From contig CAVPVX010000004.1 of NCBI GenBank assembly GCA_963709345.1, forward strand, positions 288,001-352,000: a DNA stretch of 64,000 bases, in the 5' to 3' direction. Under the pieces are notes generated by a model. The model was not told the DNA's origin. It saw only the letters and a list, made by a program, of their open reading frames with translations, and ran no database searches. Source of the stretch: an uncultured Actinomycetes bacterium (lineage in GTDB: Bacteria > Actinomycetota > Thermoleophilia > UBA2241). Shown piece by piece: positions 37,581-51,090 of the stretch. Every line of letters begins with the position of its first letter. Position 1 is the stretch's first letter. A program made the position numbers and the translations under genes.

Positions 37581-37850
37581 AGGAGGGGCACCTCGTTAGG
37601 GGGTATCGTGCCACTCCATCGTACGAGCCGCGGGGCCGCAGGTCAACGCGGCGCACGGCGAGCGTCCAAAGTCGTCGTCCAGATGTGGCCAATGCGTCGC
37701 CCGCTGGCGTGATTCCCCTGCAAAAGGGGGCTTGCCGCACATACCCCCTCCGGTTTCCCCGTCAGTTGCGTCGCGAGAAGCTGCTTTGGTAGAGTACGCC
37801 GACGGTCCGCTCGGTCTCTGGTGGCAGGGGCTCGGGCCATCCACCTTCAG

Positions 37851-38219
37851 ATGACAAGCACATATCTCACCAACTGGTTGTACGTATGGCTGTTCATCGC
37901 CGCCGGCGGTGCGCTGGTCGTTCTCATCCTGCTCTTTTCCAAGCTCATCAACCCGAGTCACCTCACGCCCGAGAAGCTGCAGCCCTACGAGTGCGGCATC
38001 CCTCCGGTCGGCAATCCCTGGCAGCCGTTCGCGGTGCGCTACTTCGTGTACGGGCTCCTGTTCCTGGTGTTCGATGTGGAAGCCGCGTTCCTGTTCCCCT
38101 GGGCGCTCGTCTTCCGCTCGCTGGGCCCGGCCGGGTTCATCGAGATGCTCCTGTTCATCGCCGTGCTGGCCCTCGGGCTTCTGTACGCCTGGCGCAAGGG
38201 GGCTCTCGAGTGGGCGTAG
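37851..38219 (+). CDS. nuoA: NADH-quinone oxidoreductase subunit A
   Basis: 'K..PYECG', 'FLVFDVE..FLFPWA', '[10 protein letters not shown]'. Confidence 0.95.
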
Positions 38220-38779
38220 GCGACTATCTGCCGGAGCGCGTCAAGGCCGTCCGGTATCCCAAGCTCGAGCACTTCAGCGAGCCCAACGTCATCACTACGA
38301 CGGCCGACTTCATCTTCAGCTGGGCGCGCTCGCACTCGGTGTTCCCGTTCACGTACGGCCTCGCCTGCTGCGCCATCGAGATGCTGAGCTCCGGGTTCGC
38401 CCGCTTCGACGTGGCGCGCTACGGCATGGAGGTCTTCCGGCCGACACCGCGCCAGTGCGACCTCATGATCGTCGCCGGTACCGTCAACGAGAAGATGGCG
38501 CCGGTCCTCAAGCGCCTGTACGACCAGATGGCGGAGCCCAAGTGGGTCATCAGCATGGGCGCCTGCGCGACCAGCGGCGGCCCCTTCTACGACGGCTACA
38601 ACGTCGTGAACGGGGTCGACAAGATCGTCCCGGTCGACGTGTACATCCCCGGGTGCCCGCCGCGTCCCGAGGCGCTGTTCCAGGGGCTGCTGGAGCTCCA
38701 GGTCAAGATCCAGCAGCACAAGTTCGTCGCCGAGAAGCCGGCCATCGCCGAGGCCGCCGCACCGGATGGGGAGGCCTGA
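38210..38779 (+). CDS. nuoB: NADH-quinone oxidoreductase subunit B
   Basis: 'GLACCAIEM', '[12 protein letters not shown]', 'MGACA..GG', 'DVYIPGCPP'. Confidence 0.95.
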
Positions 38780-38783
38780 GCGC

Positions 38784-39278
38784 ATGGGTCTCGAGATCGG
38801 CACTCACCCGATGGGCATGGACGAGATCGCGGCGCTGCTTGCCGAGCGCTTCGCCGCCGAGTTCTTTGACGTGCGCGTGCAGGAGCCGGTCACCGTGGTC
38901 GCGCGCTGCGCCCGCGAGAATCTGGCAGGCGTCGCGAGGAGTCTCAAAGAGCATCCGGATGTCGGGTACGAGACCCTCAACTGGATCGCCGGCGTCGACC
39001 ACGTGAAGTACTTCGAGAGCGTGTACCACGTGTACAGCTGGAAGACCAACACCTATCTCGAGCTTCACGTCGAGGTGCCTTGCGCCACGCCCGAGGTCGA
39101 GACCGTCAGCGCTGTATGGCCCGCCGCCGATTGGCACGAGCGCGAGTCCTTCGACATGGTCGGCATCGTCTACACCGGCCATCCCGACCTGCGCCGCATC
39201 CTGCTCAAGGACGACTTCATCGGGCACCCGCTGCGCAAAGACTACGTCGACCTCGCCGAGAACCACCCGCATGTTTGA
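38784..39278 (+). CDS. nuoC: NADH-quinone oxidoreductase subunit C
   Basis: '[17 protein letters not shown]...[10 protein letters not shown]......HPLRKDY'. Confidence 0.95.
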
Positions 39279-40485
39279 CGAGTTCGAGACACCCGAGCCG
39301 GACGAGGCCGTCAAGCTCGCGCTGCGCCGCATCGACGAAGCGACGGCGCGCGGCGAGGGCTCGGACGCCGACGGCCTCGCCTTCAACGAGTTGGTCGTCA
39401 ACATGGGGCCGCAGCATCCCAGCACGCACGGCGTGCTGCGCCTCGTGGTCACGCTTGACGGCGAGTTGGTCAAAGACGTCATCCCGGTCGTCGGCTACCT
39501 GCACCGGTGCAAAGAGAAGCTCGCCGAGCGCCGCACCTACTACCAATACATCCCCATAGTCGATCGCACCGAGTACCTGGCCAGCATCAACTGCGAGTGG
39601 GCCTACGTCATGACCGTCGAGAAGCTCGCCGGCATCCAGCCGACGCGGCGGGCGGAGTTCATCCGCGTCATCACCGGCGAGCTCATGCGCATCGCCAGCC
39701 ACCAGGTCGCCGTCGGCACCTTCACCGCCGACCTCTCGCCGCTGGGCACGGCCATGATCTTCTACATGTTCCGCGACCGTGAGTACATCCTCGACCTCCT
39801 CGAGGAGCTTACGGGCGCGCGCATGATGTTCAACTACTTCCGCTTCGGCGGCGTGCGCTACGACCTGCCGGACGGCTGGACCTCAAGGTGTCGCGCGTTC
39901 ATGAAGAAGCTGCCGAAGCTCATCGACGAGTACGAGTCGCTGGTCGACGACAACGCGATCTTCCTGCAGCGCACCCAGGGCAAGGGCGTCATCACCCAGC
40001 AGGACGTCGTCGACTACGGCATCACCGGACCGTGCGCACGCGCCTCGGCGGTCGCCCACGACCTGCGCCGCACGCGGCCGTACTCGGTGTACCCGGAGCT
40101 CGATTTCGAGGTCTGCACGCTCGACCACGGGGACATCTTCGACCGCTACAAAGTCCGTATGAACGAGATGCGCGAGAGCATCAGGATCGTCGAGCAGTGC
40201 CTGGACATGCTGCCCAAGGGGCCGGTGCAGACCGGCTCGCTGCGCGCTCCCTACGTCATCACGCCGCCGCCCGGCTCCTGCTACGTCGGTCAGGAGAATC
40301 CACGTGGCGAGTACGGCACCTACATCGAGAGCGACGGCTCGAGGTATCCGTACCGGCTCAAGTACCGCGACCCGTGCTTCTGCAACCTGCAGATCTTCCC
40401 CAAGCTCCTCAGCGGCAACAAGATCGCCGACGCGGTGGCCATCTCGGGCAGCATCGACCTCGTCCTCGGAGGCATCGACCGCTAG
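39271..40485 (+). CDS. nuoD: NADH-quinone oxidoreductase subunit D
   Basis: '[15 protein letters not shown]', 'GYLHR..EK', 'DRTEY', 'GE.MRIASH', 'ENPRGE', '[11 protein letters not shown]'. No NiFe CxxC pairs. Confidence 0.95.
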
Positions 40486-41604
40486 ATGGACGTCCTGCTC
40501 GCCATCCTTCGCGCCCTCGCCTTCGTCGTCATCGCCTACACGGTGGTGTTCGTCGCGGCGCTGGTGAACATCGTCTTCGAGCGCCGCGTCCTCGCCTTCA
40601 TGCAGGACCGCCACGGGCCCAACCGCACGGGCCCGCACGGCGTGCTGCAGAGCGTCGCCGACGCCTTCAAGATGATGGGGAAGGAGGACTTTCGCCCGCT
40701 GCTCGCCGACCCGTTCCTGTTCACGCTCGCCCCGGTCATGGTGATGATCGGGGCGGTGGCCGTGCAGTTGGTGCTCCCGTACACGGCCGGCATCACTGCG
40801 ACCGACCTCAACGTCGGCGTCATCTTCATCGTCGCGATCACCAGCTTCACGACGTTGGCGATCCTGCTGGGCGGCTGGTCGTCGCGCAACAAGTACTCCC
40901 TGGTCGGCGCGCTGCGCGCCGCCGCCCAGATGATCAGCTACGAGATCCCCATGATCCTCGGCCTGATCGTCGTCGTCATGGTCGTCGGTTCGTTCAGCGT
41001 CTCCGCCGTTGTCGAGGCGCAGGCCGGCTTCCAGTGGATCGCGTTCTACGCGCCCTTCACCTTCCTGATCTTCTACATCGCCTCGATCGCGGAGCTCAAT
41101 CGCGGCCCCTTCGATCTGCCCGAGTCCGAATCGGAGCTCGTGTCCGGCTACGGCACCGAGTACTCGGGCATGCGCTTCGGCATGTTCTTCCTCAACGAAT
41201 ACGCCGGCATGACCATCATGTCGATGGTCGCCGTGACGCTGTTCTTCGGCGGCTGGCAGGGTCCGTACGACAGCGCCGTGGTGTTCTTGGGCGTGTCGTG
41301 GATAGGCCTCGCCTGGTTCATCCTCAAGACCTACGTGCTCGTCTTCGCCCTGGTCTGGATCCGCCTGTCGCTGCCGCGTCTGCAGGTCGACCAGCTCATG
41401 GGCTTCGCCTGGAAGATCCTCATCCCGCTCGGCCTTGCGAACATCCTCGCCACGGCGGCGGTGATGCTCTGGGTGCCGAGCTGGAAGTGGGGGCTCGCGG
41501 TCTTCAGCTGGGTCGCGCTCCTCGCCTTCGTCGGCCTCTTCGACCCGATCCTCAAGTACCGCCTGCGCAAGCAGCGTGAGCGCCGGCCGGTGGTGAGCGC
41601 CTGA
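40486..41604 (+). CDS. nuoH: NADH-quinone oxidoreductase subunit H
   Basis: 'ERRVLA.MQDRHGPNR.GP.G.LQ..ADA.K', 'ISYE', 'NRGPFDLPESESELVSG...EYSG'. Confidence 0.95.
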   Translation: MDVLLAILRALAFVVIAYTVVFVAALVNIVFERRVLAFMQDRHGPNRTGPHGVLQSVADAFKMMGKEDFRPLLADPFLFTLAPVMVMIGAVAVQLVLPYTAGITATDLNVGVIFIVAITSFTTLAILLGGWSSRNKYSLVGALRAAAQMISYEIPMILGLIVVVMVVGSFSVSAVVEAQAGFQWIAFYAPFTFLIFYIASIAELNRGPFDLPESESELVSGYGTEYSGMRFGMFFLNEYAGMTIMSMVAVTLFFGGWQGPYDSAVVFLGVSWIGLAWFILKTYVLVFALVWIRLSLPRLQVDQLMGFAWKILIPLGLANILATAAVMLWVPSWKWGLAVFSWVALLAFVGLFDPILKYRLRKQRERRPVVSA

Positions 41605-42365
41605 TGCTCGGCATGTTCAAAGCCATGCGCACGACGCTCAAACATCTGCCGATGAAGAAGATCACGGTGCAGTATCCCGAGCAGCGCGATCGCCTGCCGG
41701 AGCGTAGCCGCGGCCTGTTTCGCGTCGTCATCGACCCGGCGAGCGGCGAGCCGCGTTGCCGCGCCTGCACGCTCTGCGAGAGCAACTGCCCGGTGCAGGT
41801 CATCCGCGTCAACTACGAGAGCAAGTACCGGCTCCCCGTGCCCAACGCGGCGCGCGTCGCGGAGGCGCGTCTCGCAGCGCAGACGGGCGTCGACCTCAAG
41901 GAACTGCAGCCGGTGCTCGACGACTACTACGAGCACGGCACCGGTCTCATCGCCATACTGCAGAACGCGCAGGAGGTCTACGGCTATCTGCCGCGCCTGG
42001 TGCTGCAGGAGATCGGTCTGCAGACGGGCGTCTCGCTCAGCCAGATCTACGGCGTCTCGAGCTTCTACAACCAGTTCCGGCTCTCCCCCGTCGGCGAGCA
42101 CATCATCGACGTGTGCCACGGCACCGCCTGCCACGTGGCGGGTGCGGTGCAGATCACCGAGGCCCTCGAGGAGGAGCTCGGCGTCGCCGAGGGCAAGACC
42201 ACGACGGACATGAAGTTCACGCTGTCGTCGGTGGCCTGCATGGGCGCCTGCTCGCAGGCTCCCGTGATGCGCATCGGCGACGCGACCTACGGCGCTCTCA
42301 CCCCCGACAAGACGCGCAAGATCATCCGCGACCTCATGCAAGAGGTCGGCGGTGAGAGGGGGTGA
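41604..42365 (+). CDS. Fusion of the NuoI N-terminal half with a NuoE/HydC-type [2Fe-2S] subunit
   Basis: Residues 1-75 match the NuoI N-terminus: 'TTLKHL..KKITVQYPE...LPERSRG...CRACTLCESNCP'. From about residue 96 it matches NuoE: 'LIAILQ.AQE.YGYLP', 'YGVSSFY.QF', 'CHGTACH', 'VACMGACS.AP'. Confidence 0.9.
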   Translation: MLGMFKAMRTTLKHLPMKKITVQYPEQRDRLPERSRGLFRVVIDPASGEPRCRACTLCESNCPVQVIRVNYESKYRLPVPNAARVAEARLAAQTGVDLKELQPVLDDYYEHGTGLIAILQNAQEVYGYLPRLVLQEIGLQTGVSLSQIYGVSSFYNQFRLSPVGEHIIDVCHGTACHVAGAVQITEALEEELGVAEGKTTTDMKFTLSSVACMGACSQAPVMRIGDATYGALTPDKTRKIIRDLMQEVGGERG

Positions 42366-44278
42366 GCGGAGGCGGCATGGCTGACGAGACCCCGACACCA
42401 CGCGCCGCGACCGACGTGCGTAACGTCAGCGTCGCCGAAGGACCGGACGGCAGGTTCACCGTCAAGGTGTGCGCGGGTACGGCCTGCGTGTTCGCCGGCT
42501 CCCTCGCGGTCTACGACGCGTTCGTCGAGGAGGTCGCGGCCGCCGGGCTGGGAGACAAGGTCGAGGTGAGCATCATCGGGTGCCATGGGCTCTGCTCGAT
42601 GAGTCCGGTCGTGGTGCTCGGCGACGACACGCTCTACGGCCATCTGCGGCCGAAGGACGTCGGCAAGGTCGTCGAGGAGCACCTCAAGGGGGGCGTGCCG
42701 GTCGAGCGGTTCCTCTACAAGGACGCCCAGACCGGCGAACGCATCCGCGACTGGCACGATATCGGCTTCTACAAAGCGCAGACGCGCATCGCGCTCCGCG
42801 ACGTCGGCGTCATCGACCCCGAGAGCATCGACGCCTACCTCGAGCGCGGCGGTTACGAGGCTGCGCGCATGGCGCTCACCGAGAAGACGCCCGAGTGGAT
42901 CATCGAGCACGTCACCGACTCGGGCATCCGCGGTCGCGGCGGCGCGGGGTTCCCGACCGGCGTCAAGTGGAAGTTCGCGGCGCAGTCGAAGAGTGAGATC
43001 AAGTACCTCATCTGCAACGCCGACGAGGGCGACCCCGGCGCGTTCATGGATCGCTCGATCCTCGAGGGCGATCCGCACGCCGTCATCGAGGGCATGCTCA
43101 TCGCCAGCTACGCGATCGGCGCGAGCGAGGGCTACGTGTACGTACGTGCCGAGTACCCGCTCGCGGTCAAGCGCCTCACCATGGCGATAGCCGACGCCGA
43201 GGCGCGCGGCTTCCTCGGCAAGGACGTCTTCGGCACCGGCTGGGAGTTCAGCCTCCACCTCAAGCTCGGCGCCGGCGCGTTCGTCTGCGGCGAGGAGACC
43301 GCCCTGATCGCCAGCATCGAGGGCAAGCGCGGCATGCCGCGCTCACGGCCGCCCTACCCCGCAGTCAGCGGCCTCTGGGGCAAGCCGACCAACATCAACA
43401 ACGTCGAGACGCTCGCCAACATCGCCTGGATCGTCACCCACCCCGCCGCGGCCTACTCGGACCTGGGCATCGACGTCAGCCGCGGCACCAAGGCCTTCAG
43501 CCTGGCCGGCAAGCTCGTCAACGGCGGCCTCGCCGAGGTGCCGATGGGCAGCACGCTGCGCCACGTGATCTTCGACGTCGGCGGCGGCATCAAGGGCGGC
43601 AAGAAGTTCAAGGCCGTGCAGCTCGGCGGTCCGTCCGGGGGCTGCGTGCCGGCGAGCCTGCTCGACACCCCGGTCGACTACGAGAGCCTCGCCGCGACCG
43701 GCGCCATCGTGGGTTCCGGCGGCATGGTCGTCGTCGACGAAGAAACGTGCATGGTCGACCTCGCGCGCTTCTTCCTCGACTTCACGCAGAAGGAATCGTG
43801 CGGCAAGTGCATCCCCTGCCGCCTCGGCACCAAGCGCATGCTCGAGGTCCTCGACCGCATCATCGCCGGCGACGGCCGCGAGGGCGACATCGAGTTGCTT
43901 GAGGAGCTCGGCGCCTACATCATCGAGGGCTCGCTCTGCGCCCTCGGCGGCACCGCTCCGAACCCCGTGCTGACGACCATCAAGTACTTCCGCAGCGAAT
44001 ACGAGGCCCACATCCGCGAGAAGCGCTGTCCGGCCGGGACGTGCAAGTCGCTGATCACGTACTACATCGATCCGGACGCGTGCACCGGCTGCACCCTCTG
44101 CGCCAAGAAGTGCCCGACCTCGTGCATCACCGGCGAGAAGAAGCAGCTGCACGTGATCGACGTCGCGAACTGCATCAAGTGCGACACGTGCCGCCAGGTC
44201 TGCAAGTTCGACGCGGTCAAGGTGCGCTCGGGCATCGAGCAGGCCGTGGCCGGCACCTCCGAAGGGGCTGAGAGCTGA
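42362..44278 (+). CDS. nuoF: NuoF/HydB-type FMN/NADH subunit with an N-terminal thioredoxin-like [2Fe-2S] and C-terminal 2x[4Fe-4S] domains (bifurcating type)
   Basis: 'CAGTAC...GCHGLC', 'GRGGAGFPTG.KW', 'CNADEGDPGAFMDR', 'GAGAFVCGEETAL', 'GGPSGG', 'ESCGKCIPCR', 'HIREKRCPAGTC', 'CTGCTLCAKKCP', 'CIKCDTCRQVC'. Alternative ATG at 42377. Confidence 0.92.
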   Translation: MSGGGMADETPTPRAATDVRNVSVAEGPDGRFTVKVCAGTACVFAGSLAVYDAFVEEVAAAGLGDKVEVSIIGCHGLCSMSPVVVLGDDTLYGHLRPKDVGKVVEEHLKGGVPVERFLYKDAQTGERIRDWHDIGFYKAQTRIALRDVGVIDPESIDAYLERGGYEAARMALTEKTPEWIIEHVTDSGIRGRGGAGFPTGVKWKFAAQSKSEIKYLICNADEGDPGAFMDRSILEGDPHAVIEGMLIASYAIGASEGYVYVRAEYPLAVKRLTMAIADAEARGFLGKDVFGTGWEFSLHLKLGAGAFVCGEETALIASIEGKRGMPRSRPPYPAVSGLWGKPTNINNVETLANIAWIVTHPAAAYSDLGIDVSRGTKAFSLAGKLVNGGLAEVPMGSTLRHVIFDVGGGIKGGKKFKAVQLGGPSGGCVPASLLDTPVDYESLAATGAIVGSGGMVVVDEETCMVDLARFFLDFTQKESCGKCIPCRLGTKRMLEVLDRIIAGDGREGDIELLEELGAYIIEGSLCALGGTAPNPVLTTIKYFRSEYEAHIREKRCPAGTCKSLITYYIDPDACTGCTLCAKKCPTSCITGEKKQLHVIDVANCIKCDTCRQVCKFDAVKVRSGIEQAVAGTSEGAES

Positions 44279-44280
44279 CC

Positions 44281-46755
44281 ATGGCGACCACGGCGGAGAA
44301 CGTACCCCAGACGAAGCCGCGCCCCGGCCAGATCACCCTGACCATCGACGGACAGGAAGTCACCTGCGAGCGCGGCGACACGATCCTCGAGGCTGCGCAG
44401 CGCATCGGCATCCACATCCCGACTCTCTGCTACGAGCCGCGGCTCCCGGCCACCGCCGCCTGCCGCATGTGCATCGTCGAGGTCGAGGGCGCCCGCAAGG
44501 TCGTCCCGAGCTGCTCCTCGGCGGTCAGCGACGGCATGGTCGTGCGCACCAACACCGACAAGGTGCGCGCCATGCGGCACCTGTATCTCGAGCTGCTGCT
44601 CAGCGACCACAACTCGTTCTGCACGCCGCCGTGCCGCGACGCCTGCCCGACGCACATCAAGATCCCGCAGTTCCTCGACTACATCGCTCACAAGGACTAC
44701 AAGAACGGCGTGCGCAAGCTGCGCGAGGATCTGCCCTTCCCGGCCATCTTGGGGCGCGTCTGCCCGCGGCCCTGTGAGGGACCGTGCCGTCGCCAGCTCG
44801 TGGAGCACCCCATCACCATCTGCCAGCTCCACCGCTTCATGGCCGACCAGACCATCGACGAGGAGCAGACCGGCGAGCTGCTGCTGCCGGTCGAGCCGAA
44901 GGCCGACACCGGTAGAAGGATCGCCGTCGTGGGTGGCGGGCCCGCCGGCCTGGCATGCGCGTTCTATGCCCGGCTCGAGGGGCACTCGGTCAAGATCTTC
45001 GAGGCCCTGCCCAAGCCGGGCGGTATGCTCCGCTACGGCATCCCCAGCTACCGCCTGCCGCGCGACCTCCTCGACAAGGAGATCAACGTGCTCTGGCGCA
45101 TGGGTGTCGAGATCCAAGTCGACAGCCGTCTCGGCGTTGACTACCAGCTTGAGGATCTGCTGGGCGAGTACGACGCCGTCTTCCTCGGCCTCGGCGCCTT
45201 CAACAGCAACGACATGCGCATCCCCGGTGAAGACGCCGACGGAGTCGTCACCGCCGTCGACTTCCTCGGCGAGCTCGAGCGCACCGGCGAGGTGCACGTG
45301 GGCAAGAAGGTCACCGTCATCGGTGGCGGCTTCACGGCCATGGACGCCTGCCGCACCGGCTTGCGCAAAGGCGCCGCCGAGGTCACCTGCCTCTACCGCC
45401 GCTCGCGCAAGGAGATGCCGGCGCACCACACCGAGGTCGACGAGGCCGAGGAGGAGGGCGTCAAGCTCGAGCTTCTCTGCGCGCCGCTCCGCGTGCTCAC
45501 CGACGGCGCGAACAAGGTCACCGGCATCGAGATGCAGCGCATGGAGCTGGGCGAGCCCGACGCCTCCGGGCGCCGCCGCCCCGTGCCGGTCGAGGGCTCG
45601 GAGTTCGTCGTCGAGTGCGACCAGGTCATCGCCGCCATCGGCCAGTACCCCAAGCTCGACGGCACCAGCGAGGAACAGGGCGTCAAACGCACCAAGTGGC
45701 GTACGATCGAGGTCGACGACTGGACCTTCCAGACGGATGATCCGCGCGTCTTCGCCGGCGGTGACGCCGTGCTCGGCGCGCAGACGGTGATCCAGGCCGT
45801 GGCGCAGGGCAAGAAGGCCGCCTGGAGCATCGACGCCTTCCTGCGCGGCGCCGACATGCGCGACGTGGGGCAGTCGCTCGCGGAGCTCAAGGCCACGCCG
45901 TTCTTCAACGCGCTGACGAACAAGACGGATCTCGACCCGCGCATCGCGCGAATGGCCGAGATCCCACCCGTGTTCATCGACATGACCACCGACGTGAAGC
46001 ACCCGAGCCCGCCCGCCGAGATGCCCAAGCTCCCCCCCGACGAGCGCAGGACCAACTTCAAGCAGATCGAGCTCGGCTTCAGCGAAGAAGAGGCCGTCCG
46101 CGGCGCCGAGCTCTGCCTCGATTGCTACTGCCCGGCGAACGGCAAGTGCGACCTCCAGCGGTACAGCATCGAGTACGAGGTGTTCAAGAACCGCTTCCAC
46201 GGCGGCGAAGCCCACGACTACCCGGCCGACTTCCGCCACGACTTCATCATGCGCGAGCCCAACCGCTGCATCAATTGCGGGCGCTGCGTGCGCGTCTGCC
46301 GCATGGAGGTGGGCTCGAGCTGCTACGACAACATGGGCCGCGGGTTCGACTCCATCGTCAGCACGGCCGACAATCTGCCGCTGCAGCTGGTCGGCTGCGT
46401 GAGTTGCGGCAAGTGCGCGGAGACCTGCCCGACCGGGTCCATCGAGACCAACCCGCGCCTGCTCGCCAGCTACGACCTGGACGAGAGCCGCTGCATCTTC
46501 TGCGGGGAGTGCGTCGAGGTCTGCCCCTACGACGCGCTCGAGCAGACCGACTACTACGAGCTTGCCGGCTACAATCGCACGACCATGGCGAGGGAGTCGC
46601 TCTACGTGCGTGAGCCGCGCCCCGCCGACCCGCTGCGCGAGACGCTCCCCGACCTCGTGCCGCACGTGCGCGACGCGGTGCTGGGCGCCGGCTGGGTGTG
46701 GGATCCGATCAAGGACGACCCGATCGACCTGGGCGACCCGGAGGAGGCCGGCTGA
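44281..46755 (+). CDS. NuoG-like Fe-S / GltD-like FAD-NADPH oxidoreductase fused to the NuoI C-terminal half
   Basis: 2Fe-2S 'IPTLC..ACRMC..SC'. GltD region 'PPCRDACP', 'GRVCPRPCEGPC', 'GGGPAG', 'GGMLRYGIP.YRLP', 'GGGFTAMD', 'YRRS', 'FAGGD'. Then 'CINCGRCVRVC' and 'CVSCGKCAETCP', and finally the NuoI-type 'YDLDESRCIFCGECVEVCPYDAL....YELAGYNR'. Confidence 0.9.
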   Translation: MATTAENVPQTKPRPGQITLTIDGQEVTCERGDTILEAAQRIGIHIPTLCYEPRLPATAACRMCIVEVEGARKVVPSCSSAVSDGMVVRTNTDKVRAMRHLYLELLLSDHNSFCTPPCRDACPTHIKIPQFLDYIAHKDYKNGVRKLREDLPFPAILGRVCPRPCEGPCRRQLVEHPITICQLHRFMADQTIDEEQTGELLLPVEPKADTGRRIAVVGGGPAGLACAFYARLEGHSVKIFEALPKPGGMLRYGIPSYRLPRDLLDKEINVLWRMGVEIQVDSRLGVDYQLEDLLGEYDAVFLGLGAFNSNDMRIPGEDADGVVTAVDFLGELERTGEVHVGKKVTVIGGGFTAMDACRTGLRKGAAEVTCLYRRSRKEMPAHHTEVDEAEEEGVKLELLCAPLRVLTDGANKVTGIEMQRMELGEPDASGRRRPVPVEGSEFVVECDQVIAAIGQYPKLDGTSEEQGVKRTKWRTIEVDDWTFQTDDPRVFAGGDAVLGAQTVIQAVAQGKKAAWSIDAFLRGADMRDVGQSLAELKATPFFNALTNKTDLDPRIARMAEIPPVFIDMTTDVKHPSPPAEMPKLPPDERRTNFKQIELGFSEEEAVRGAELCLDCYCPANGKCDLQRYSIEYEVFKNRFHGGEAHDYPADFRHDFIMREPNRCINCGRCVRVCRMEVGSSCYDNMGRGFDSIVSTADNLPLQLVGCVSCGKCAETCPTGSIETNPRLLASYDLDESRCIFCGECVEVCPYDALEQTDYYELAGYNRTTMARESLYVREPRPADPLRETLPDLVPHVRDAVLGAGWVWDPIKDDPIDLGDPEEAG

Positions 46756-47264
46756 TGCCCGGCGGCGACTTCCATCCCTGGTTCTTCGTCATCGTCGCCG
46801 CGTGGGTGCTCGTCTGCGGCCTCGGCGTCGTGCTGTTCAAGAAGATCATGTACTCGGCCGTGTCGATGATCTTCTGCTTCCTCGGCGTGGCGTTCGCCTT
46901 CGCGCTGCTCAACGCGCCGCTGGTCGCCGTCCTGCAGATCGTGATCTACGTCGGCGCCATCTCGATCGTCGTGATCTTCGCGATCATGCTCACCGAGGTC
47001 CAGACCGGCGGCTTCGAGCTCTTCTTCAACCGCCAGACGCTGGGCGCGGCCGTCGTCGCCCTCGTCGGCGCCGCGGTCCTCGCCGTGGTCGCCCTGTCGG
47101 CGGACATCGGGGCAGTGGGCGAGAAGTCGCTCACCCCGGGCATCAAGACGCTGTCGCGTCTCATCTTCGACCGGTACGTGCTGCCGTTCGAGTTGGTCTC
47201 GCTGGTGCTGGTGGCGGCCATGATCGGCGCCATCGTCCTCGCGCATCGAGAGGAGGAGCGCTGA
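46755..47264 (+). CDS. nuoJ: NADH-quinone oxidoreductase subunit J
   Basis: 'QIVIYVGAI.IV.IFAIML', 'Y.LPFEL.S.VL..AMIGAI'. Confidence 0.93.
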   Translation: MPGGDFHPWFFVIVAAWVLVCGLGVVLFKKIMYSAVSMIFCFLGVAFAFALLNAPLVAVLQIVIYVGAISIVVIFAIMLTEVQTGGFELFFNRQTLGAAVVALVGAAVLAVVALSADIGAVGEKSLTPGIKTLSRLIFDRYVLPFELVSLVLVAAMIGAIVLAHREEER

Positions 47265-47572
47265 TGGATCCACTCCAGTGGTGGCTGTTGCTCTCGATCC
47301 TGCTCTTCTGCATCGGCGCCTTCGGCGTGCTCGCCCGGCGGAACGTGATCGTCGTCGTCATGAGCCTCGAGATCATGCTCAGCGCGGTGAACATCGCGCT
47401 GGTCGCGACCGCCAACTTCAGGGGCGGCGCGCGTGGCGCCGGCACGCTCTTCGCACTGTTCATGATCGTGCTGGCCGCCTCCGAGGTCACGGTGGGCCTG
47501 GCGATAGTCATCGCCAACTACCGCAACCGGCGCACCGTACAGACCGACACCTACGACGAGCTCAAGGGGTAG
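47264..47572 (+). CDS. nuoK: NADH-quinone oxidoreductase subunit K
   Basis: 'RRNVI...MSLEIML', 'AASE..VGLAI', ending 'LKG'. Confidence 0.93.
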   Translation: MDPLQWWLLLSILLFCIGAFGVLARRNVIVVVMSLEIMLSAVNIALVATANFRGGARGAGTLFALFMIVLAASEVTVGLAIVIANYRNRRTVQTDTYDELKG

Positions 47573-47603
47573 CGAGGAAGCACCGGTGGAGGGGACTCAG
47601 TAC

Positions 47604-49502
47604 ATGAAGATCGCCGTGGCGCTCATCCCGCTGCTGCCGCTGCTCGGCTTCATCGTGACGCTCGTGCTCGGCAAGCGCTGGGGCGCCAGGGCCCACATCC
47701 TTGCGGTCGCGCTCGTCACCGTCTCGGCGGCGCTCAGCATCTACGCCTTCATCTGGGCGTTCACGCATCAGCACGAGACCTTCGTCTGGGACGCCTTCAC
47801 CTGGGTCGCGGCCGGTCGCTTCACCGTCGAGTGGGGTTTCCAGGTCGACACCCTGACCGGCGTCATGCTCCTCGTGGTCGGCATCATCGGCATGGTCGTG
47901 CACTACTACTCGATCGGCTACATGCACGGCGACGAGGGCTACTACCGCTTCTTCGCCTACCTCAACCTGTTCATGTTCGCGATGTTCGTGCTCATCCTCG
48001 CCGACAACTACCTCCTGCTCTTCCTCGGCTGGGAGGGCGTGGGCCTGTGCTCGTACCTGCTGATCGCCTTCTGGTTCCGCAAGAAGAGCGCCAGCCAGGC
48101 GGGCAAGAAGGCCTTCATCGTCAACCGGGTCGGCGACTTCGGCTTCATGCTCGCCATGTTCACCATCTTCACGGCGACCGGCACGCTCCAGTTCAGCGGC
48201 GTCTTCGAGGCCGCCGAGTCCGGCGCGATCGCCGGCGGCACCATGACCTGGATCTGCCTGCTGCTGTTCGCCGGCGCGATCGGCAAGAGCGCCCAGTTCC
48301 CGCTGCACGTGTGGCTGCCGGACGCCATGGAGGGCCCCACGCCGGTCAGCGCGCTCATCCACGCCGCCACGATGGTCAACGCCGGCGTCTACATGGTCGC
48401 GCGCTCGTACCCGCTGTTCATCAGCAGCGAGACGGCGATGCTCGTCGTCATGGGTATCGGCATCTTCACCGCGATCTTCGCGGCCTACATCGCGATCACC
48501 CAGAACGACATCAAGAAGGTGATCGCGTACTCCACCATCTCGTCGCTCGGCTTCATGTTCGTGGCGCTCGGCGCCGGGGCCTGGGTGGCGGGCATCTTCT
48601 ACCTGTTCGCGCACGGCTTCTTCAAGGGACTGCTGTTCCTCTGCTCGGGCTCGGTGATCCACGCCATGGGCGGGGAACAGGACATGCGCAAGATGGGGGG
48701 ACTGCGCAAGAAGCTCCCCATCACCTTCTGGACGATGATGGCCGGCGCCCTCTCCATGGTCGGACTGATCCCCTTCGCAGGCTTCTGGGCCAAGGACGAG
48801 ATCATCGGCGCGACGTTCATCCACGGGTACTACGTGGTGTGGGCGGTGGCGATGGTCGTCGTGCTCCTCACCGCCATCTACATGGGGCGTCTCATGTTCC
48901 TCACCTTCTGGGGCGAGAACCGCTCCGACGCCGAGGTGCAGGCCCATATCCACGAGTCGCCGCCGATCATGACGGTGCCGCTGATCGTCCTCGCGATCCC
49001 TGCCGCCCTGCTCGGCCTCGTCGTCGGCCTGCCGCCCGAGGGAGGCTGGATCCACGACTTCCTGCACCCGGTCTTCTTCGATGTCGAGGGCGAGCCGTTC
49101 CACCTGCTCGGCGAGGGCGGGCTGCTCATGCTCGCCTCCCTCGCCACTGTGCTGGTGGGTCTGTACGTCGCCTACTACCTCTACGTGCGCCAGACGGAGA
49201 TCCCCGGGCGCATCGCCGCGCGCGTTCCCGTCGCCTACAAGGCCAGCCTCAACAAGATGTACATGGACGACATCTACGACGTCGTGCCGATCCGCGCCAC
49301 GCTCGGGTTCGCCGACTGGCTCTGGACCTTCTTCGACGTCAAAGTCATCGACGGCGCCGTCAACGGCATGGCCCGCCTCTGGGGCTGGGCCGGCGACCGC
49401 TTGCGGCCCATCCAGACCGGTCGCGTCCAGAGCTACGCCATGTACATGTTCGCCGGCATGGTGCTTCTCGTGATCGTCTTCGCCTGGGTCTGGGTGAGTT
49501 GA
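47604..49502 (+). CDS. nuoL: NADH-quinone oxidoreductase subunit L
   Basis: 'YSIGYM', 'GWEGVGLCSYLLI', 'NRVGDFG', 'GKSAQFPLHVWLPDAMEGPTPVSALIHAATMV', 'QTGRVQ.Y'. ATG at 47604 with RBS GGAGG. Confidence 0.95.
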   Translation: MKIAVALIPLLPLLGFIVTLVLGKRWGARAHILAVALVTVSAALSIYAFIWAFTHQHETFVWDAFTWVAAGRFTVEWGFQVDTLTGVMLLVVGIIGMVVHYYSIGYMHGDEGYYRFFAYLNLFMFAMFVLILADNYLLLFLGWEGVGLCSYLLIAFWFRKKSASQAGKKAFIVNRVGDFGFMLAMFTIFTATGTLQFSGVFEAAESGAIAGGTMTWICLLLFAGAIGKSAQFPLHVWLPDAMEGPTPVSALIHAATMVNAGVYMVARSYPLFISSETAMLVVMGIGIFTAIFAAYIAITQNDIKKVIAYSTISSLGFMFVALGAGAWVAGIFYLFAHGFFKGLLFLCSGSVIHAMGGEQDMRKMGGLRKKLPITFWTMMAGALSMVGLIPFAGFWAKDEIIGATFIHGYYVVWAVAMVVVLLTAIYMGRLMFLTFWGENRSDAEVQAHIHESPPIMTVPLIVLAIPAALLGLVVGLPPEGGWIHDFLHPVFFDVEGEPFHLLGEGGLLMLASLATVLVGLYVAYYLYVRQTEIPGRIAARVPVAYKASLNKMYMDDIYDVVPIRATLGFADWLWTFFDVKVIDGAVNGMARLWGWAGDRLRPIQTGRVQSYAMYMFAGMVLLVIVFAWVWVS

Positions 49503-49503
49503 C

Positions 49504-51090
49504 GTGAGCTGGAACGACCAGATCGGCTTCCCGATTCTCTCCGTCATCACCTTCCTGCCGCTCGCCGGCGTGCTGGTGATCCTGCTCGTGGGCCGCGGCC
49601 GCCCCGTCGTGTACAAGACGATCGCCCTCATCGTGACGCTGGCGGCGTTCGTCCTCTCGGTGTGGATGCTGTTCGCCTTCAGGACCACGCTGCCGGGCAT
49701 GCAGTTCGCCGAAGACCTGAAGTGGATCGAGGCGCTGAACATCCACTACGGCATGGGCGTCGACGGCATCGCCGCGCTGCTCGTCTTCCTGACGACGCTG
49801 CTCGGCTGCATCGTCATCATCTCCAGTTGGAACTACGTGAAGGACCGTGAGGTCGGCTTCTTCATCTCGCTGCTGCTTCTCCAGGTGGGGATGGTCGGCG
49901 TCTTCTGCGCCACCGACCTCTTCCTCTTCTACGTGTACTGGGAAGCCATGCTGGTGCCGATGTACTTCATCATCGGCATCTGGGGCGGCCCGCGCCGGGT
50001 CTACGCGGCGATCAAGTTCTTCCTGTTCACGCTGGTCGGCAGCCTGCTCATGCTCGTCGCGATCATCGTCGTCGTGTACTACGTGCAGGACGGCGCGGGG
50101 CCGCTGACGTTCGACATCCAGGAGCTCAGCCGCCAGGTGTACTCGTATCACCTGCAGTTCTGGGCCTTCCTCGCCTTCTTCCTGGCGTTCGCCATCAAGG
50201 TGCCGATGTTCCCGCTGCACACCTGGCTCCCGGATGCCCATGTCGAGGCGCCGACGGCCGGCTCCGTCATCCTCGCCGGCGTGCTCCTCAAGATGGGCGG
50301 CTACGGCATGCTGCGCTTCTGCCTGCCGTTCTTCCCGGACGCCTCGGTGACGTTCATCCCGTGGGTGGTAGGGCTCTCGGTGATCGCGATCATCTACGGC
50401 GCGCTCGTCGCGCTCATGCAGAAGGACCTCAAGAAGCTGGTCGCGTACTCGAGCGTGAGCCACATGGGTTTCGTCACCGCCGGCATCTTCGCCAGCATCG
50501 CGCTGGTCGGCAACGCGGCCGGCATGGAGGGCGCGATCCTCGTCATGCTCAGCCACGGCTTCCTCACCGGCGCCCTGTTCCTCATGGTCGGCTACGCCTA
50601 CGAGCGCACGCACACACGCCTGATCGCCGACATGGGCTCGCTGGCCAAGCCGCTGCCCATCCTGGCCGGGTTCTTCCTCTTCTTCGCCTTCGGCTCCGCC
50701 GGGCTGCCCGGCCTGAGCGGCTTCGTCGGCGAGTTCCTCAGCCTGCTCGGCGTCTTCGAGTACTCGCGCTGGCTGGCGGCGCTCGGCGCGCTCGGCGTGA
50801 TCCTCGCCGCCGCCTACCTCCTCTGGATGTTCCAGCGCACGATGTTCAACGACCGTGGCGACGCCGACGTGAAGCCCACGTTCGAGCTCAAGGACCTGAA
50901 CGCCCGTGAGATCGTGTCGCTGCTGCCGCTGGTCGTCTTCGTCGTCTGGCTCGGCGTGTATCCCGAGACGTTCCTGAACTTCCTGCACGTGCCGGTGCAG
51001 GCGATCCTCGACAAGGTCACGCCGTCGCTCCAGGACGCGAGCGTGCATGGGCTGGCGCAGCTCTTCGACGTCACCAGGGGGCTGTTCTAG
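49504..51090 (+). CDS. nuoM: NADH-quinone oxidoreductase subunit M
   Basis: 'GVDGI', 'FYVYWE..LVPMY', 'IKVPMFPLHTWLPDAHVEAPT', 'LLKMGGYG', 'AYSSVSHMG', 'GLPG..GFVGEF'. Confidence 0.95.
   Translation: MSWNDQIGFPILSVITFLPLAGVLVILLVGRGRPVVYKTIALIVTLAAFVLSVWMLFAFRTTLPGMQFAEDLKWIEALNIHYGMGVDGIAALLVFLTTLLGCIVIISSWNYVKDREVGFFISLLLLQVGMVGVFCATDLFLFYVYWEAMLVPMYFIIGIWGGPRRVYAAIKFFLFTLVGSLLMLVAIIVVVYYVQDGAGPLTFDIQELSRQVYSYHLQFWAFLAFFLAFAIKVPMFPLHTWLPDAHVEAPTAGSVILAGVLLKMGGYGMLRFCLPFFPDASVTFIPWVVGLSVIAIIYGALVALMQKDLKKLVAYSSVSHMGFVTAGIFASIALVGNAAGMEGAILVMLSHGFLTGALFLMVGYAYERTHTRLIADMGSLAKPLPILAGFFLFFAFGSAGLPGLSGFVGEFLSLLGVFEYSRWLAALGALGVILAAAYLLWMFQRTMFNDRGDADVKPTFELKDLNAREIVSLLPLVVFVVWLGVYPETFLNFLHVPVQAILDKVTPSLQDASVHGLAQLFDVTRGLF

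What the first reader, a model, noticed from the sequence alone, without database searches (positions are those of the whole stretch)
44281..46755. Nested 'NuoG' replacement adds a second, NADPH-type flavin site to complex I
Seen: a NuoG-like N-terminus in which the His-ligated cluster motif (intact as HHNDCIVCDQAGGC in the FDH at 17373) is interrupted after 'HNSFC' and resumes about 520 residues later as 'CYCPANGKCDLQ'. The insert is a full GltD-like module with 'GGGPAG', 'GGGFTAMD' and 'YRRS'. There is no molybdopterin-like C-terminal domain, and the NuoI half sits in its place. Established: GxGxxA plus a YRR motif indicates NADP(H) preference in the GltD family, and HydC/HydB/GltD-fusion trios resemble Sporomusa-type Stn and related NfnABC transhydrogenases. 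Inference: the complex could link four pools (NADH, NADPH, ferredoxin, quinone) with the ion gradient, acting as a membrane-docked transhydrogenase/complex I hybrid.
Basis: partly seen in the sequence, partly recalled or inferred. Interest (0 to 1): 0.85.

Follow-up and report, generated by a model that had tools for sequence, protein, structure and literature searches.

The report
Complex I with grafted NADPH module
In uncultured Thermoleophilia bacteria the usual NADH-input head of the respiratory proton pump complex I is replaced by a three-protein module of the soluble Nfn/Stn transhydrogenase type, whose largest protein carries an NADPH-type flavin domain and ends in one half of the complex I wire subunit NuoI, so the pump can probably be fed by NADPH as well as NADH.

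Summary
The ORF at 44281-46755 (824 aa) has a [2Fe-2S] domain, an HNSFC half-motif, a complete GltD/NfnL-type FAD/NAD(P)H module, the resumed Cys motif, a ferredoxin-like dicluster domain and the C-terminal half of NuoI. It has no molybdopterin-like domain.

The nested layout is not new in itself. It is the solved StnC/NfnA (Nfn-Bfu) architecture (E 1e-160 to 1e-190).

The context is what is new:
- The two genes upstream are a BfuB-type NuoF and a NuoE carrying the N-terminal half of NuoI.
- A whole Nfn/Stn-type trio therefore sits inside a split nuoI, between nuoH and nuoJ.
- This is the only complex I operon in a genome that is 98% complete.
- Gene order is conserved in all 41 informative Thermoleophilia loci.

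My reading is a membrane-bound complex I with two nucleotide sites (FMN/NADH and FAD/NADPH) plus intact bifurcation-type hardware. It would be wired to quinone through clusters A2-A4 and the reassembled NuoI. Function is inferred, not shown.

Eight literature searches found a predicted "Nuo-Bfu" class but no description of the split NuoI or of a GltD-bearing version. The scan has flagged this arrangement before on other DNA.

Verdict: a new variant of a known kind, interest 0.72.

The parts
37821..38219 (+). nuoA
   Evidence: NCBIfam NuoA models, E 9e-30
38216..38779 (+). nuoB (start codon uncertain). The N2 ligand motifs [14 protein letters not shown] and PGCPP are present.
   Evidence: TIGR01957 scores 231 bits against a cut-off of 142.7; translation
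38766..39278 (+). nuoC
   Evidence: Pfam Complex1_30kDa, E 4.6e-39
39271..40485 (+). nuoD
   Evidence: Pfam Complex1_49kDa, E 5.8e-92
40486..41604 (+). nuoH. It is the only NuoH-family gene found in the genome, and its stop overlaps the next gene's start (TGATG).
   Evidence: Pfam NADHdh, E 2.5e-112; own-genome search gave 1 match; sequence
41604..41828 (+). N-terminal half of NuoI (residues 1-75 of P0002), with the first cluster motif CRACTLCESNCP, fused to the NuoE-like protein
   Evidence: TIGR01971 positions 2-66, E 2.6e-13; matches TYKY/NDUFS8 chains at residues 4-73, E about 1e-8; alignment to intact NuoI
41901..42365 (+). BfuC/NuoE-like thioredoxin-type [2Fe-2S] part of P0002 (residues 100-253)
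   Evidence: Pfam 2Fe-2S_thioredx, E 3e-47; NfnC 9n5u_C E 1.6e-47 and StnA 8oh5_A E 2.5e-44
42362..44278 (+). BfuB-type NuoF (P0003, 638 aa). It has an N-terminal Cys4 thioredoxin-like domain, an FMN/NADH site, the N3/B1 cluster, the B2 site Cys/His/Cys/Cys and a C-terminal 2x[4Fe-4S] domain.
   Evidence: Pfam; NfnB 9bov_B E 1.7e-238 and StnB 8oh5_B E 9e-238 over residues 34-621
44281..46755 (+). The finding: Nfn-type BfuA (P0001, 824 aa) fused to the C-terminal half of NuoI
44329..44622 (+). [2Fe-2S] domain (residues 17-92) and the first half of the split cluster motif, H110-x3-C114
   Evidence: Pfam Fer2_4, E 1.6e-21; H110 and C114 invariant in 32 sequences
44623..45855 (+). Inserted GltD/NfnL-like module (residues about 115-525). 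It holds two [4Fe-4S] sites, the FAD site GGGPAG, the NAD(P)H site GGGFTAMD (45322-45345) and YRRS (45394-45405). His184 stands where StnC has the cluster ligand Lys170.
   Evidence: Fer4_20 and Pyr_redox_2; TIGR01316, 386 bits; alignment to StnC/NfnA
46114..46158 (+). Resumed cluster motif C612-LD-C-Y-C-PANGK-C-DLQ
   Evidence: Pfam NADH-G_4Fe-4S_3 positions 15-39 of 40; aligned to CLECGCxxxxEC of NfnA/StnC
46243..46440 (+). Ferredoxin-like dicluster domain (motifs CINCGRCVRVC and CVSCGKCAETCP), which corresponds to clusters A2/A4 of NfnA
   Evidence: Pfam Fer4_Nqo3 at 655-720; alignment to NfnA/StnC; cluster roles from PMC11829005
46450..46752 (+). C-terminal half of NuoI (residues 724-790, motif CIFCGECVEVCP, then YELAGYNR) plus a conserved tail to residue 824
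   Evidence: TIGR01971 positions 69-115, E 7e-16; alignment to intact NuoI including the tail REPRPADPL; invariant columns
46755..47264 (+). nuoJ (its ATG overlaps the stop of P0001, TGATG)
   Evidence: NCBIfam NuoJ, E 1.6e-29; sequence
47282..47572 (+). nuoK
   Evidence: Pfam Oxidored_q2; NCBIfam NuoK
47586..52626 (+). nuoL (47586-49502), nuoM (49504-51090) and nuoN (51091-52626)
   Evidence: Pfam Proton_antipo_M, E 1e-71 to 1e-85

Best explanation
The operon at 37821-52626 encodes a respiratory complex I. Its NADH-input head (NuoEFG) is replaced by an Nfn/Stn-type BfuABC module that is covalently threaded through a split NuoI.

The protein of the finding is the BfuA subunit. Its parts, in order, are:
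- [2Fe-2S] (cluster A1).
- A cluster motif interrupted by a GltD/NfnL-type FAD domain with two clusters (A6, A7).
- The rest of that motif (cluster A3).
- A dicluster ferredoxin-like domain (A2, A4).
- In place of the Fdh-like domain of soluble enzymes, the second half of NuoI.

The first half of NuoI is the N-terminus of the NuoE-like BfuC. The two halves would pair to rebuild clusters N6a/N6b next to NuoB and NuoD.

Inferred electron paths:
- NADPH -> FAD -> A7 -> A6 -> A3 -> A2 -> A4 -> N6a/b -> N2 -> quinone.
- NADH -> FMN -> B1 -> A1 -> A2 -> the same exit.
- The A2-A4 branch, a dead end in soluble NfnABC, becomes the exit wire here.

BfuB keeps all bifurcation-type features. Reduced ferredoxin is therefore probably co-oxidised with NADH (confurcation).

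Shown: architecture, homology, conservation and uniqueness in the genome. Inferred: cofactor binding, pairing of the NuoI halves, direction of flow and ferredoxin coupling.

My odds: the module is physically part of complex I, 0.85. The GltD site oxidises NADPH, 0.7. Ferredoxin-coupled confurcation occurs, 0.4.
For: Domain map.

Homology to solved enzymes:
- P0001 residues 17-744 match Csac NfnA 9bov_A (E 2.4e-190), StnC 8oh5_C (5.7e-169) and Tsib NfnA 9n5u_A (1.5e-160).
- P0003 matches NfnB/StnB at E about 1e-238. It has the B2-site Cys/His/Cys/Cys, the N-terminal Cys4 and the C-terminal two Cys motifs.
- P0002 residues 94-247 match NfnC/StnA. Residues 4-73 match TYKY/NDUFS8.

The nucleotide site is kept. 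YRRS and GxGxxA are as in the NADPH-dependent StnC/NfnA, and the equivalent of StnC R239 is R258.

The genome depends on this operon:
- No intact NuoI was found in the genome, which is 98.06% complete.
- Only one NuoH was found.
- NuoB has the N2 ligands.
- Gene junctions overlap.

Conservation:
- A full-length NuoI-N::NuoE protein is present in 31 of 35 same-family genomes and in pieces in 2 more. None was listed in 165 genomes of other families.
- The order IE-F-GI holds in all 41 loci that hold the GI gene. nuoJ follows in the 38 that extend far enough.
- All cluster ligands are invariant in 32 sequences.

Cluster roles in soluble enzymes: the path is A7-A6-A3-A2-A1-B1, and A4/A5 form a dead-end branch off A2 (PMC11829005, passages read; PMC10482914, section 8 read).

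Complex prediction (P0001 640-824 with P0002 1-100) gave weak support:
- Score 0.41 against a best score of 0.00 among 3 controls.
- That mark was reached by 116 of 157 solved complexes and by 2 of 215 mismatched pairs.
- Scores of 0.60 or under were seen in only 18 of those 157, and in both mismatches that passed.
- The runs agree in at least 78% of contacts, and the partner's pLDDT is at least 53.
- Because intact NuoI is solved, the pass may reflect likeness only.
Against: - There are no biochemical or structural data for this enzyme, and every carrier is an uncultured MAG.
- The AlphaFold2 model of P0001 is unusable for residues 614-824 (pLDDT 22-41), so cluster distances could not be checked.
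- The exit route A4 -> N6 differs from canonical complex I, where the His-ligated N5 hands on to N6a (recalled). It rests only on sequence adjacency, a 21-residue linker.
[quoted passage not shown] Here that domain is naturally absent.
- StnC's cluster ligand Lys170 is His184 here, and StnC C114 is Ile128.
- 2 of 32 relatives have a degenerate nucleotide motif: P0109 has YWRS, and P0245 has GDGFAAAE and SPCA.
- PntB is present, so NADH/NADPH exchange does not need this enzyme.
Confidence: 0.7

Rival explanations
1. Plain dual-specificity NAD(P)H dehydrogenase head. The module only passes electrons from NADH and NADPH to quinone. The bifurcation-type extras of BfuB are inherited baggage, and ferredoxin plays no part.
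For: Quinone is a far better acceptor than NAD or ferredoxin, so no coupling is needed to drive either reaction (established thermodynamics; table in PMC9304861). 17 of 35 relatives, like the genome itself, show no canonical NuoI. In those organisms this enzyme must do ordinary NADH oxidation.
Against: P0003 keeps every Bfu-specific feature that non-bifurcating NuoF lacks: the B2-site His, the C-terminal dicluster domain and the N-terminal Cys4 domain. The genome has ferredoxin-dependent enzymes (AFOR and 2-oxoacid oxidoreductases). No RnfD was found to reoxidise ferredoxin.
Confidence: 0.3
2. The trio is a soluble Stn/Nfn-type transhydrogenase that merely lies inside the nuo operon. The membrane complex would be an 11-subunit ferredoxin-type enzyme.
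For: The trio's closest solved relatives are all soluble enzymes. 11-subunit complexes without NuoEFG are common (PMC3144371 and PMC11238625, search listings only).
Against: An 11-subunit complex still needs NuoI. Here NuoI exists only as two halves fused to BfuC and BfuA, and no intact copy was found. The Fdh-like domain that mediates assembly of soluble StnC is missing. The fusions are conserved across the family.
Confidence: 0.05
3. The same architecture runs mainly in reverse. Proton-motive force and quinol would drive reduction of NADP+ and/or ferredoxin for biosynthesis.
For: Complex I and Nfn/Stn enzymes are reversible (PMC10482914, passages). The genome has a cytochrome bd oxidase, while no heme-copper oxidase was found, which fits a low-energy lifestyle.
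Against: Nothing in the sequence indicates a direction. In 17 of 35 relatives and in this genome it is the only complex I found, so forward NADH oxidation would otherwise be missing.
Confidence: 0.1
4. The GltD-like insert no longer binds NADPH. It would be a structural or electron-storage remnant, or act on another substrate as GltD relatives such as NsoC do.
For: Two of 32 relatives have degenerate motifs. The Por-type paralogues replace YRRS by ISPN or IAQH, and GGG by GDG. The cluster ligand differs from StnC (His for Lys).
Against: In the Nuo-type proteins G348 and A353 are invariant. G349, G350, Y372, R373, R374 and S375 are at least 90% conserved. The motif is identical in kind to those of three enzymes with measured NADPH activity (PMC9304861, PMC10482914 and PMC11829005, passages).
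Confidence: 0.1

Closest known systems
StnABC / NfnABC (Nfn-Bfu) electron-bifurcating transhydrogenases: Sporomusa ovata 8oh5, Caldicellulosiruptor saccharolyticus 9bov/9bp5, Thermococcus sibiricus 9n5u
   Same: All three subunits are homologous over nearly their whole soluble-enzyme length (E 1e-44 to 1e-238). The large subunit has the same nested order: [2Fe-2S], HxxxC, GltD/NfnL insert, resumed Cys motif, dicluster domain. It has the same NADPH-type motif. The BfuB extras are also the same.
   Different: These enzymes are soluble and have an Fdh/NuoG-like C-terminal domain with cluster A5. Here that domain is replaced by half of NuoI, and BfuC carries the other half. The genes lie inside a nuo operon. 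The A7 ligand Lys is His here.
Nuo-Bfu, the complex I with a BfuABC head predicted by Schut et al. 2022 (PMC9304861) in Deferribacteres, Proteobacteria, Planctomycetes and Nitrospirae
   Same: BfuABC-type genes sit in the middle of a nuo cluster and replace NuoEFG. Quinone is the proposed third substrate and proton pumping is predicted (passages read).
   Different: That class is described as Type 3, with no catalytic domain in BfuA. The paper's text has no occurrence of NuoI, GltD, fused, fusion or split, nor of Actinobacteria or Thermoleophilia (its one held supplement file). Here BfuA is of the NADPH-binding Nfn type and NuoI is split. I did not inspect a Nuo-Bfu operon myself.
Canonical 14-subunit complex I (NuoA-N), including the one in 18 of 35 same-family genomes
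   Same: The same eleven core genes are present. NuoB has the N2 ligands. The NuoI sequence is recognisable in both halves.
   Different: The canonical operons of relatives (L089, L090) run A-C-D-E-F-G-H-I-J-K-L-M-N as far as this query set detected (no nuoB match was listed). They have a short NuoF and an intact NuoI, and are only about 38-48% identical to this operon's core subunits. Here the order is A-B-C-D-H-[I'E]-F-[G'I'']-J-K-L-M-N.
Mbx-like operons in which NuoI is substituted by a gltD-related flavoprotein (Degli Esposti 2015, PMC4758237)
   Same: This is a precedent for a GltD-type NAD(P)H flavoprotein attached at the NuoI position of a complex I relative (passage read).
   Different: That case is a substitution of NuoI in a hydrogenase-like Mbx relative. 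It involves no Bfu trio and no split NuoI. It was not examined here.
Por-Bfu (Schut 2022) and the Por-type paralogue seen here (L088, L021)
   Same: The paralogue has the same cassette, 41% identical in BfuA. It has homologous half-ferredoxin pieces on the BfuC N-terminus and after the BfuA dicluster domain.
   Different: Its BfuA continues into the TPP-binding beta subunit of a 2-oxoacid:ferredoxin oxidoreductase. A separate complete delta subunit is kept, and the YRRS motif is absent. Por-Bfu as published has separate Por subunits.

Membership tests
Nfn-Bfu (StnABC/NfnABC), BfuA subunit | N-terminal [2Fe-2S] domain, then an NfnL/GltD-like FAD domain nested before the NuoG-type clusters | tested here: met
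   Pfam domain order. One continuous alignment over residues 17-744 to 9bov_A, 8oh5_C and 9n5u_A.
Nfn-Bfu (StnABC/NfnABC), BfuA subunit | NADPH/FAD site residues (GxGxxG, GxGxxA, YRR[ST], StnC R239) | tested here: met
   GGGPAG, GGGFTAMD, YRRS and R258 align to the StnC/NfnA residues. They are at least 90% conserved in 32 relatives. Binding itself was not tested.
Nfn-Bfu (StnABC/NfnABC), BfuA subunit | Lys ligand of cluster A7/C7 (StnC K170) | tested here: not met
   His184 aligns with K170 and is invariant in 32 sequences and in the Por-type paralogues.
Nfn-Bfu (StnABC/NfnABC), BfuA subunit | Fdh/NuoG-like C-terminal domain | tested here: not met
   No molybdopterin-type Pfam family was found. 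The alignments to the 963-1178 aa solved chains stop at residues 723-744.
Bfu family core (BfuB, BfuC) | BfuB with a C-terminal 2x[4Fe-4S] domain, the B2 site including the family-specific His, and an N-terminal thioredoxin-like domain; BfuC with [2Fe-2S] | tested here: met
   Pfam. Alignment to 9n5u_B shows the counterparts of C437, H524, C529 and C534 (with PMC12018979 passage). BfuC.
Bfu family core (BfuB, BfuC) | Electron bifurcation between NAD, ferredoxin and a third substrate | not testable with these tools
   This needs enzyme assays.
Respiratory complex I (Nuo) | Core genes nuoA, B, C, D, H, J, K, L, M, N in one operon, and N2 ligands in NuoB | tested here: met
Respiratory complex I (Nuo) | NuoI as one polypeptide with two CxxCxxCxxxCP motifs | tested here: not met
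   Model positions 2-66 lie on P0002 and positions 69-115 on P0001. No match over the cut-off was found anywhere in the genome.
Respiratory complex I (Nuo) | NuoG with a molybdopterin-like domain and a NuoF without extensions | tested here: not met
Nuo-Bfu (predicted class, Schut 2022) | BfuABC genes within the nuo cluster replacing NuoEFG | tested here: met
   Gene order. Definition from PMC9304861.
Nuo-Bfu (predicted class, Schut 2022) | Type 3 BfuA without a catalytic domain of its own | tested here: not met
   P0001 carries the NfnL/GltD domain that defines Type 1 Nfn-Bfu.

The most novel reading that the evidence does not exclude
The split NuoI may be a portable 'plug'. A Bfu-type NADH/NADPH/ferredoxin module carries one half of a dicluster ferredoxin on its first protein and the other half on its last. 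It can therefore be wired covalently into different enzymes. In these bacteria the same cassette, with homologous half-ferredoxins, is attached once to the proton-pumping complex I and once to the TPP subunit of a 2-oxoacid:ferredoxin oxidoreductase. The complex I version would be a single machine linking NADH, NADPH, ferredoxin and quinone to the ion gradient. In many of these organisms it would be the only complex I.
Probability: 0.35. Interest if true: 0.85.

Novelty: new variant of a known kind. Interest (0 to 1): 0.72.

Why it matters
The nucleotide-oxidising heads of complex I characterised so far have a single site, NADH at FMN (recalled). A version with a second, NADPH-type flavin and a bifurcation-type core would have three consequences:
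- It would change how redox budgets are read from genomes of widespread soil and sediment Thermoleophilia. Annotation calls these proteins 'FAD-dependent oxidoreductase' or 'formate dehydrogenase major subunit', and the operon looks as if it lacks NuoI.
- It would give a natural test case for whether Bfu-type modules can be coupled to proton pumping, as predicted but never shown for Nuo-Bfu.
- It would show an unusual evolutionary route, in which an iron-sulfur subunit is rebuilt from two polypeptides so that a soluble enzyme's dead-end cluster branch becomes the wire into a membrane complex.

Tried and rejected
- AlphaFold2 of P0001 with the 32-row alignment gave mean pLDDT 63. The GltD part was confident, but all Fe-S regions and residues 614-824 were below 50. 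The model therefore cannot show whether H110/C114 meet the resumed motif or how the NuoI half sits. No fold search was run on it.
- An alternative pairing was considered. In it, motifs 2 and 3 of P0001 (706-748) form a complete NuoI-like dicluster by themselves, as Pfam Fer4_7 and the MAFFT placement suggest. I rejected it as less likely for two reasons. Motif 2 is homologous to the A2/A4 motif of the solved NfnA/StnC. And it would leave the NuoI-specific N-half on P0002 without a partner. It is not excluded.
- I first read the Por-type locus as a split of the delta subunit of the oxidoreductase. I dropped this when the intact locus L088 showed a separate complete delta subunit.
- The genome's own Por-type locus (L021) has frame breaks in the BfuC- and BfuB-like genes. 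I could not tell a pseudogene from assembly indels. Many related long contigs also show broken tblastn matches.
- Six Planctomycetota loci fetched with P0002 hold a BfuC-, BfuB- and BfuA-like trio and no nuo matches. They add nothing.
- RNA libraries: only small shares of the stretch's words were held (0.05-0.08). When laid, short contigs of four runs from four studies, 88-99% alike, touch 27-30 of 30 bins. One contig runs from nuoH into the NuoI-N part. Contigs in an RNA library do not prove transcription, and the NuoF part is swamped by other organisms.
- The search of earlier findings by place returned nothing.


Full report
**1. The observation**

The ORF at 44281-46755 (+) translates without a stop to 824 residues (P0001).
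- HNSFC at residues 110-114.
- GGGPAG at 218-223, GGGFTAMD at 348-355 and YRRS at 372-375.
- CYCPANGKCDLQ at 615-626, which is 501 residues after the first half-motif.

Pfam finds the following:
- Fer2_4 at 17-92.
- Fer4_20 at 114-194.
- Pyr_redox_2 at 213-510.
- Only the rear part of NADH-G_4Fe-4S_3 at 614-637 (profile positions 15-39 of 40; weak).
- Fer4_Nqo3 at 655-720.
- One more 4Fe-4S motif at 733-754.
- No molybdopterin-type family.

NCBIfam matches residues 724-770 to positions 69-115 of the 121-position NuoI model. The FDH-like ORF at 17373-20054 carries the uninterrupted HHNDCIVCDQAGGC.

**2. The nested layout is already known**

P0001 aligns in one piece, residues 17 to about 744, with three solved large subunits:
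- C. saccharolyticus NfnA (9bov_A, E 2.4e-190).
- S. ovata StnC (8oh5_C, 5.7e-169).
- T. sibiricus NfnA (9n5u_A, 1.5e-160).

Each of these has H-x3-C, then the GltD/NfnL-like domain, then C-x2-C-x-C-x5-C, then the dicluster domain. The Stn paper describes StnC as a fusion of GltD and NuoG domains (PMC10482914, abstract and section 8 read). NCBIfam even has a model, PRK12814, that covers residues 17-674. The interruption of the cluster motif was therefore inherited, not invented in this operon.

**3. The neighbours supply the new part**

The operon reads nuoA, B, C, D, H, P0002, P0003, P0001, nuoJ, K, L, M, N.
- P0003 (638 aa) is a BfuB-type NuoF. It matches NfnB and StnB at E about 1e-238 over residues 34-621. 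It has the N-terminal Cys4 thioredoxin-like domain and the C-terminal two Cys motifs.
- P0003 also has the counterparts of T. sibiricus C437/H524/C529/C534. The His is said to be conserved in virtually all Bfu B subunits (PMC12018979 passage).
- P0002 (253 aa) is NuoE/BfuC-like from residue about 95 (NfnC E 1.6e-47).
- The first 74 residues of P0002 match positions 2-66 of the NuoI model and residues 4-73 match TYKY/NDUFS8 chains. This part includes the motif CRACTLCESNCP.

Aligned with intact NuoI from two genomes of the same class:
- P0002 residues 1-75 cover the N-terminal half.
- P0001 residues about 728-790 cover the C-terminal half, down to the tail REPRPADPL, against REKPPTDPL in the intact protein.

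NuoI is therefore split at the loop between its two cluster motifs, and the whole Nfn/Stn-type trio lies in the gap. The junctions nuoH/P0002 and P0001/nuoJ are TGATG overlaps.

**4. The enzyme is needed and conserved**

In the genome itself (98.06% complete, 11 contigs):
- No NuoI match over the model's cut-off was found.
- There is a single NuoH.
- NuoB has the N2 ligands.

In a sample of 201 genomes of the class:
- The full-length NuoI-N::NuoE protein is found in 31 of 35 genomes of the same family.
- It is in two pieces in 2 more (G074, G134) and was not found in 2 (G122; G171, which is 76% complete).
- No listed match in the 165 genomes of other families starts before residue 26. A further 354 weaker matches were not listed.

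An intact NuoI is present in 18 of the 35 relatives. Two of these were inspected:
- NuoI lies in an ordinary E-F-G-H-I-type nuo operon. No nuoB match was listed.
- That operon's core subunits are only about 38-48% identical to this operon's. Its NuoF matches only residues 153-557 of P0003.

The grafted operon is thus a separate, divergent complex I. It is the only one found in this genome and in 17 of the 35 relatives.

In GTDB species genomes, 64 loci were fetched with P0002. Of these, 58 show this operon's genes. Nearly all are titled Thermoleophilia, Actinomycetes or Actinomycetota. Two short contigs are titled Deltaproteobacteria and Vicinamibacteria.
- After I dropped tblastn pieces under 45% identity, all 41 loci that contain the P0001 gene have it directly after the F gene and the IE gene.
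- nuoJ follows in the 38 loci that extend far enough.

Protein searches point the same way:
- At least 120 clusters of about 825-aa proteins are at least 77% identical over residues 600-824 (266 hits, best 120 listed).
- At least 120 clusters of about 253-aa fusions are at least 67% identical (1186 hits, best 120 listed).
- In the 1.84-billion representative library, only a handful of the best 150 hits to residues 600-824 reach the NuoI tail. All of them are at least 61% identical.

A Chloroflexota protein (P0405) is 44% identical over residues 498-785, including the NuoI half. This agrees with earlier notes of this scan that place the same arrangement in Chloroflexota. I did not check its operon.

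**5. How it most likely works**

In soluble NfnABC, electrons run NADPH-FAD-A7-A6-A3-A2-A1-B1 to the FMN/B1/C1 site. A4 and A5 hang off A2 as a dead-end branch, judged an evolutionary remnant (PMC11829005 passages; likewise C1/C2 in StnC).

In P0001 the chain is cut just after the A2/A4 domain. After 21 residues it continues with the NuoI half. By inference the dead-end branch becomes the exit: A2-A4-N6a/N6b-N2-quinone. NADPH (FAD in the insert) and NADH (FMN in P0003) would then both reach quinone through A2.

The nucleotide motif is the one shared by three enzymes with measured NADPH activity. It is conserved in the Nuo-type proteins: G348 and A353 are invariant, and Y372, R373, R374 and S375 are at least 90% conserved. 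The Por-type paralogues have ISPN or IAQH there. That contrast argues that the NADPH-type site is kept for a reason.

P0003 keeps all bifurcation-type hardware. No RnfD was found in the genome, and it has several ferredoxin-linked oxidoreductases. Co-oxidation of ferredoxin is therefore plausible but unproven.

A cytochrome bd oxidase and PntB are present, and no heme-copper oxidase was found.

Complex prediction for the two NuoI-bearing pieces gave only weak support:
- Score 0.41 against a best control of 0.00.
- The mark was reached by 116 of 157 solved complexes and by 2 of 215 mismatches.
- Scores of 0.60 or under were seen in only 18 of those 157, and in both mismatches that passed.
- The runs agree in at least 78% of contacts, and the partner's pLDDT is at least 53.
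- The pass may reflect likeness to solved NuoI.

**6. Differences from StnC that may matter**
- The A7 ligand Lys170 is His184 here. It is invariant, also in the paralogues.
- StnC C114 is Ile128 here.
- The FdhF-like domain is absent. Deleting it in S. ovata gave no active complex.
- Two of 32 relatives (P0109, P0245) have degenerate nucleotide motifs.

**7. A sister cassette**

A paralogue of P0001 (42% identity) lies at G000:C7 (L021), after the gamma and alpha genes of a 2-oxoacid:ferredoxin oxidoreductase. In the intact version in G014 (L088) the order is:
- gamma;
- a complete delta subunit (128 aa);
- alpha;
- a BfuC with an N-terminal extension that bears one Cys motif (that motif was read in L021, not in L088);
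- BfuB;
- a 1061-aa BfuA whose third Cys motif runs into the TPP-binding beta subunit.

The half-ferredoxin pieces are homologous between the two cassettes: LDESRCI.C.ECV..CP in both, and RC..CTLCE..CPV in both. The split ferredoxin therefore behaves as a connector that travels with the cassette. The copy in this genome has frame breaks, and their cause is unresolved.

**8. Literature**

Schut et al. 2022 (PMC9304861; abstract and passages read) predict a 'Nuo-Bfu' class and a 'Por-Bfu' class. The text contains no NuoI, GltD, fused, fusion, split, Actinobacteria or Thermoleophilia. Its one held supplement file names neither taxon, and its sequence table was not held.

Degli Esposti 2015 (PMC4758237, passage) notes Mbx-like operons in which a gltD-related flavoprotein stands in for NuoI.

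Full-text searches found no description of a split NuoI or of a GltD-bearing complex I head. Searches returned no paper, and 'Nuo-Bfu' occurs in one paper only.

**9. Earlier notes of this scan**

Notes found after I had reached this reading describe the same arrangement on other genomes of Thermoleophilia and Chloroflexota. They agree with this report but are not independent evidence.

**10. Verdict**

This is a new variant of known kinds (complex I and Nfn-Bfu), of clear interest to people who work on complex I evolution and on flavin/cluster-based bifurcation.

Noticed in passing
G000:C7:455000-472000 (L021); intact counterpart G014:C1:500500-516500 (L088): There is a Por-type sister cassette. 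After the gamma, delta and alpha subunits of a 2-oxoacid:ferredoxin oxidoreductase come a BfuC with an N-terminal half-ferredoxin, a BfuB, and a 1061-1088 aa BfuA-GltD protein that continues into the TPP-binding beta subunit. The copy in this genome has frame breaks in the BfuC- and BfuB-like genes.
   Followed up: partly
window 44830-44832 (His184 of P0001): The residue aligned with the unusual Lys ligand of the FAD-proximal cluster in StnC (K170) is an invariant His. This holds in all 32 Nuo-type relatives and in both Por-type paralogues. The preceding Cys181 is also conserved.
   Followed up: partly
proteins P0245 and P0109 (relatives of P0001): Two relatives have degenerate nucleotide-site motifs. 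P0245 has GDGFAAAE and SPCA plus a deletion in the FAD domain. P0109 has YWRS. P0245's motif resembles that of the Por-type paralogues.
   Followed up: no
G128:C4:221500-241499 (L089) and G151:C8:34500-54499 (L090): About half of the same-family genomes (18 of 35) also carry an ordinary E-F-G-H-I-type nuo operon. Its core subunits are only about 38-48% identical to the grafted one. This genome shows no such second operon.
   Followed up: partly
own genome: C10:191123-192379, C7:493642-495063, C7:301875-303098, C10:151317-152549, C7:651549-652748: Five further GltD-like domains (37-45% identical to the insert) lie in very long open frames of 824-1507 aa. The genome seems rich in GltD fusion proteins.
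   Followed up: no
window 10675-13554, 22485-24005, 26368-28323, 28519-30669, 30737-33250: Anaerobe-type redox genes lie upstream of the operon: an FAD-oxidase fused to a CCG domain (959 aa), an MTTB-family methyltransferase, an indolepyruvate/2-oxoacid:ferredoxin oxidoreductase-like protein, an AMP-binding CoA-ligase-like protein and an aldehyde:ferredoxin oxidoreductase.
   Followed up: no
window 17373-20054: This is an FDH-like protein (893 aa) with an intact NuoG-type N-terminus. The N-terminus of relative P0026 (851 aa) resembles this protein's N-terminus rather than that of P0001, which suggests a chimera or a misassembly in that record.
   Followed up: no
protein P0405 (Chloroflexota MAG; 296 aa as annotated): It is 44% identical to P0001 residues 498-785, including the NuoI C-half. 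As annotated it starts inside the GltD domain, so the gene call is probably truncated or the gene is divided there.
   Followed up: partly
window 52460-53461: A YmdB-like metallophosphoesterase gene lies directly after nuoN. As listed, the ORF overlaps the end of nuoN, so its real start is probably later.
   Followed up: no
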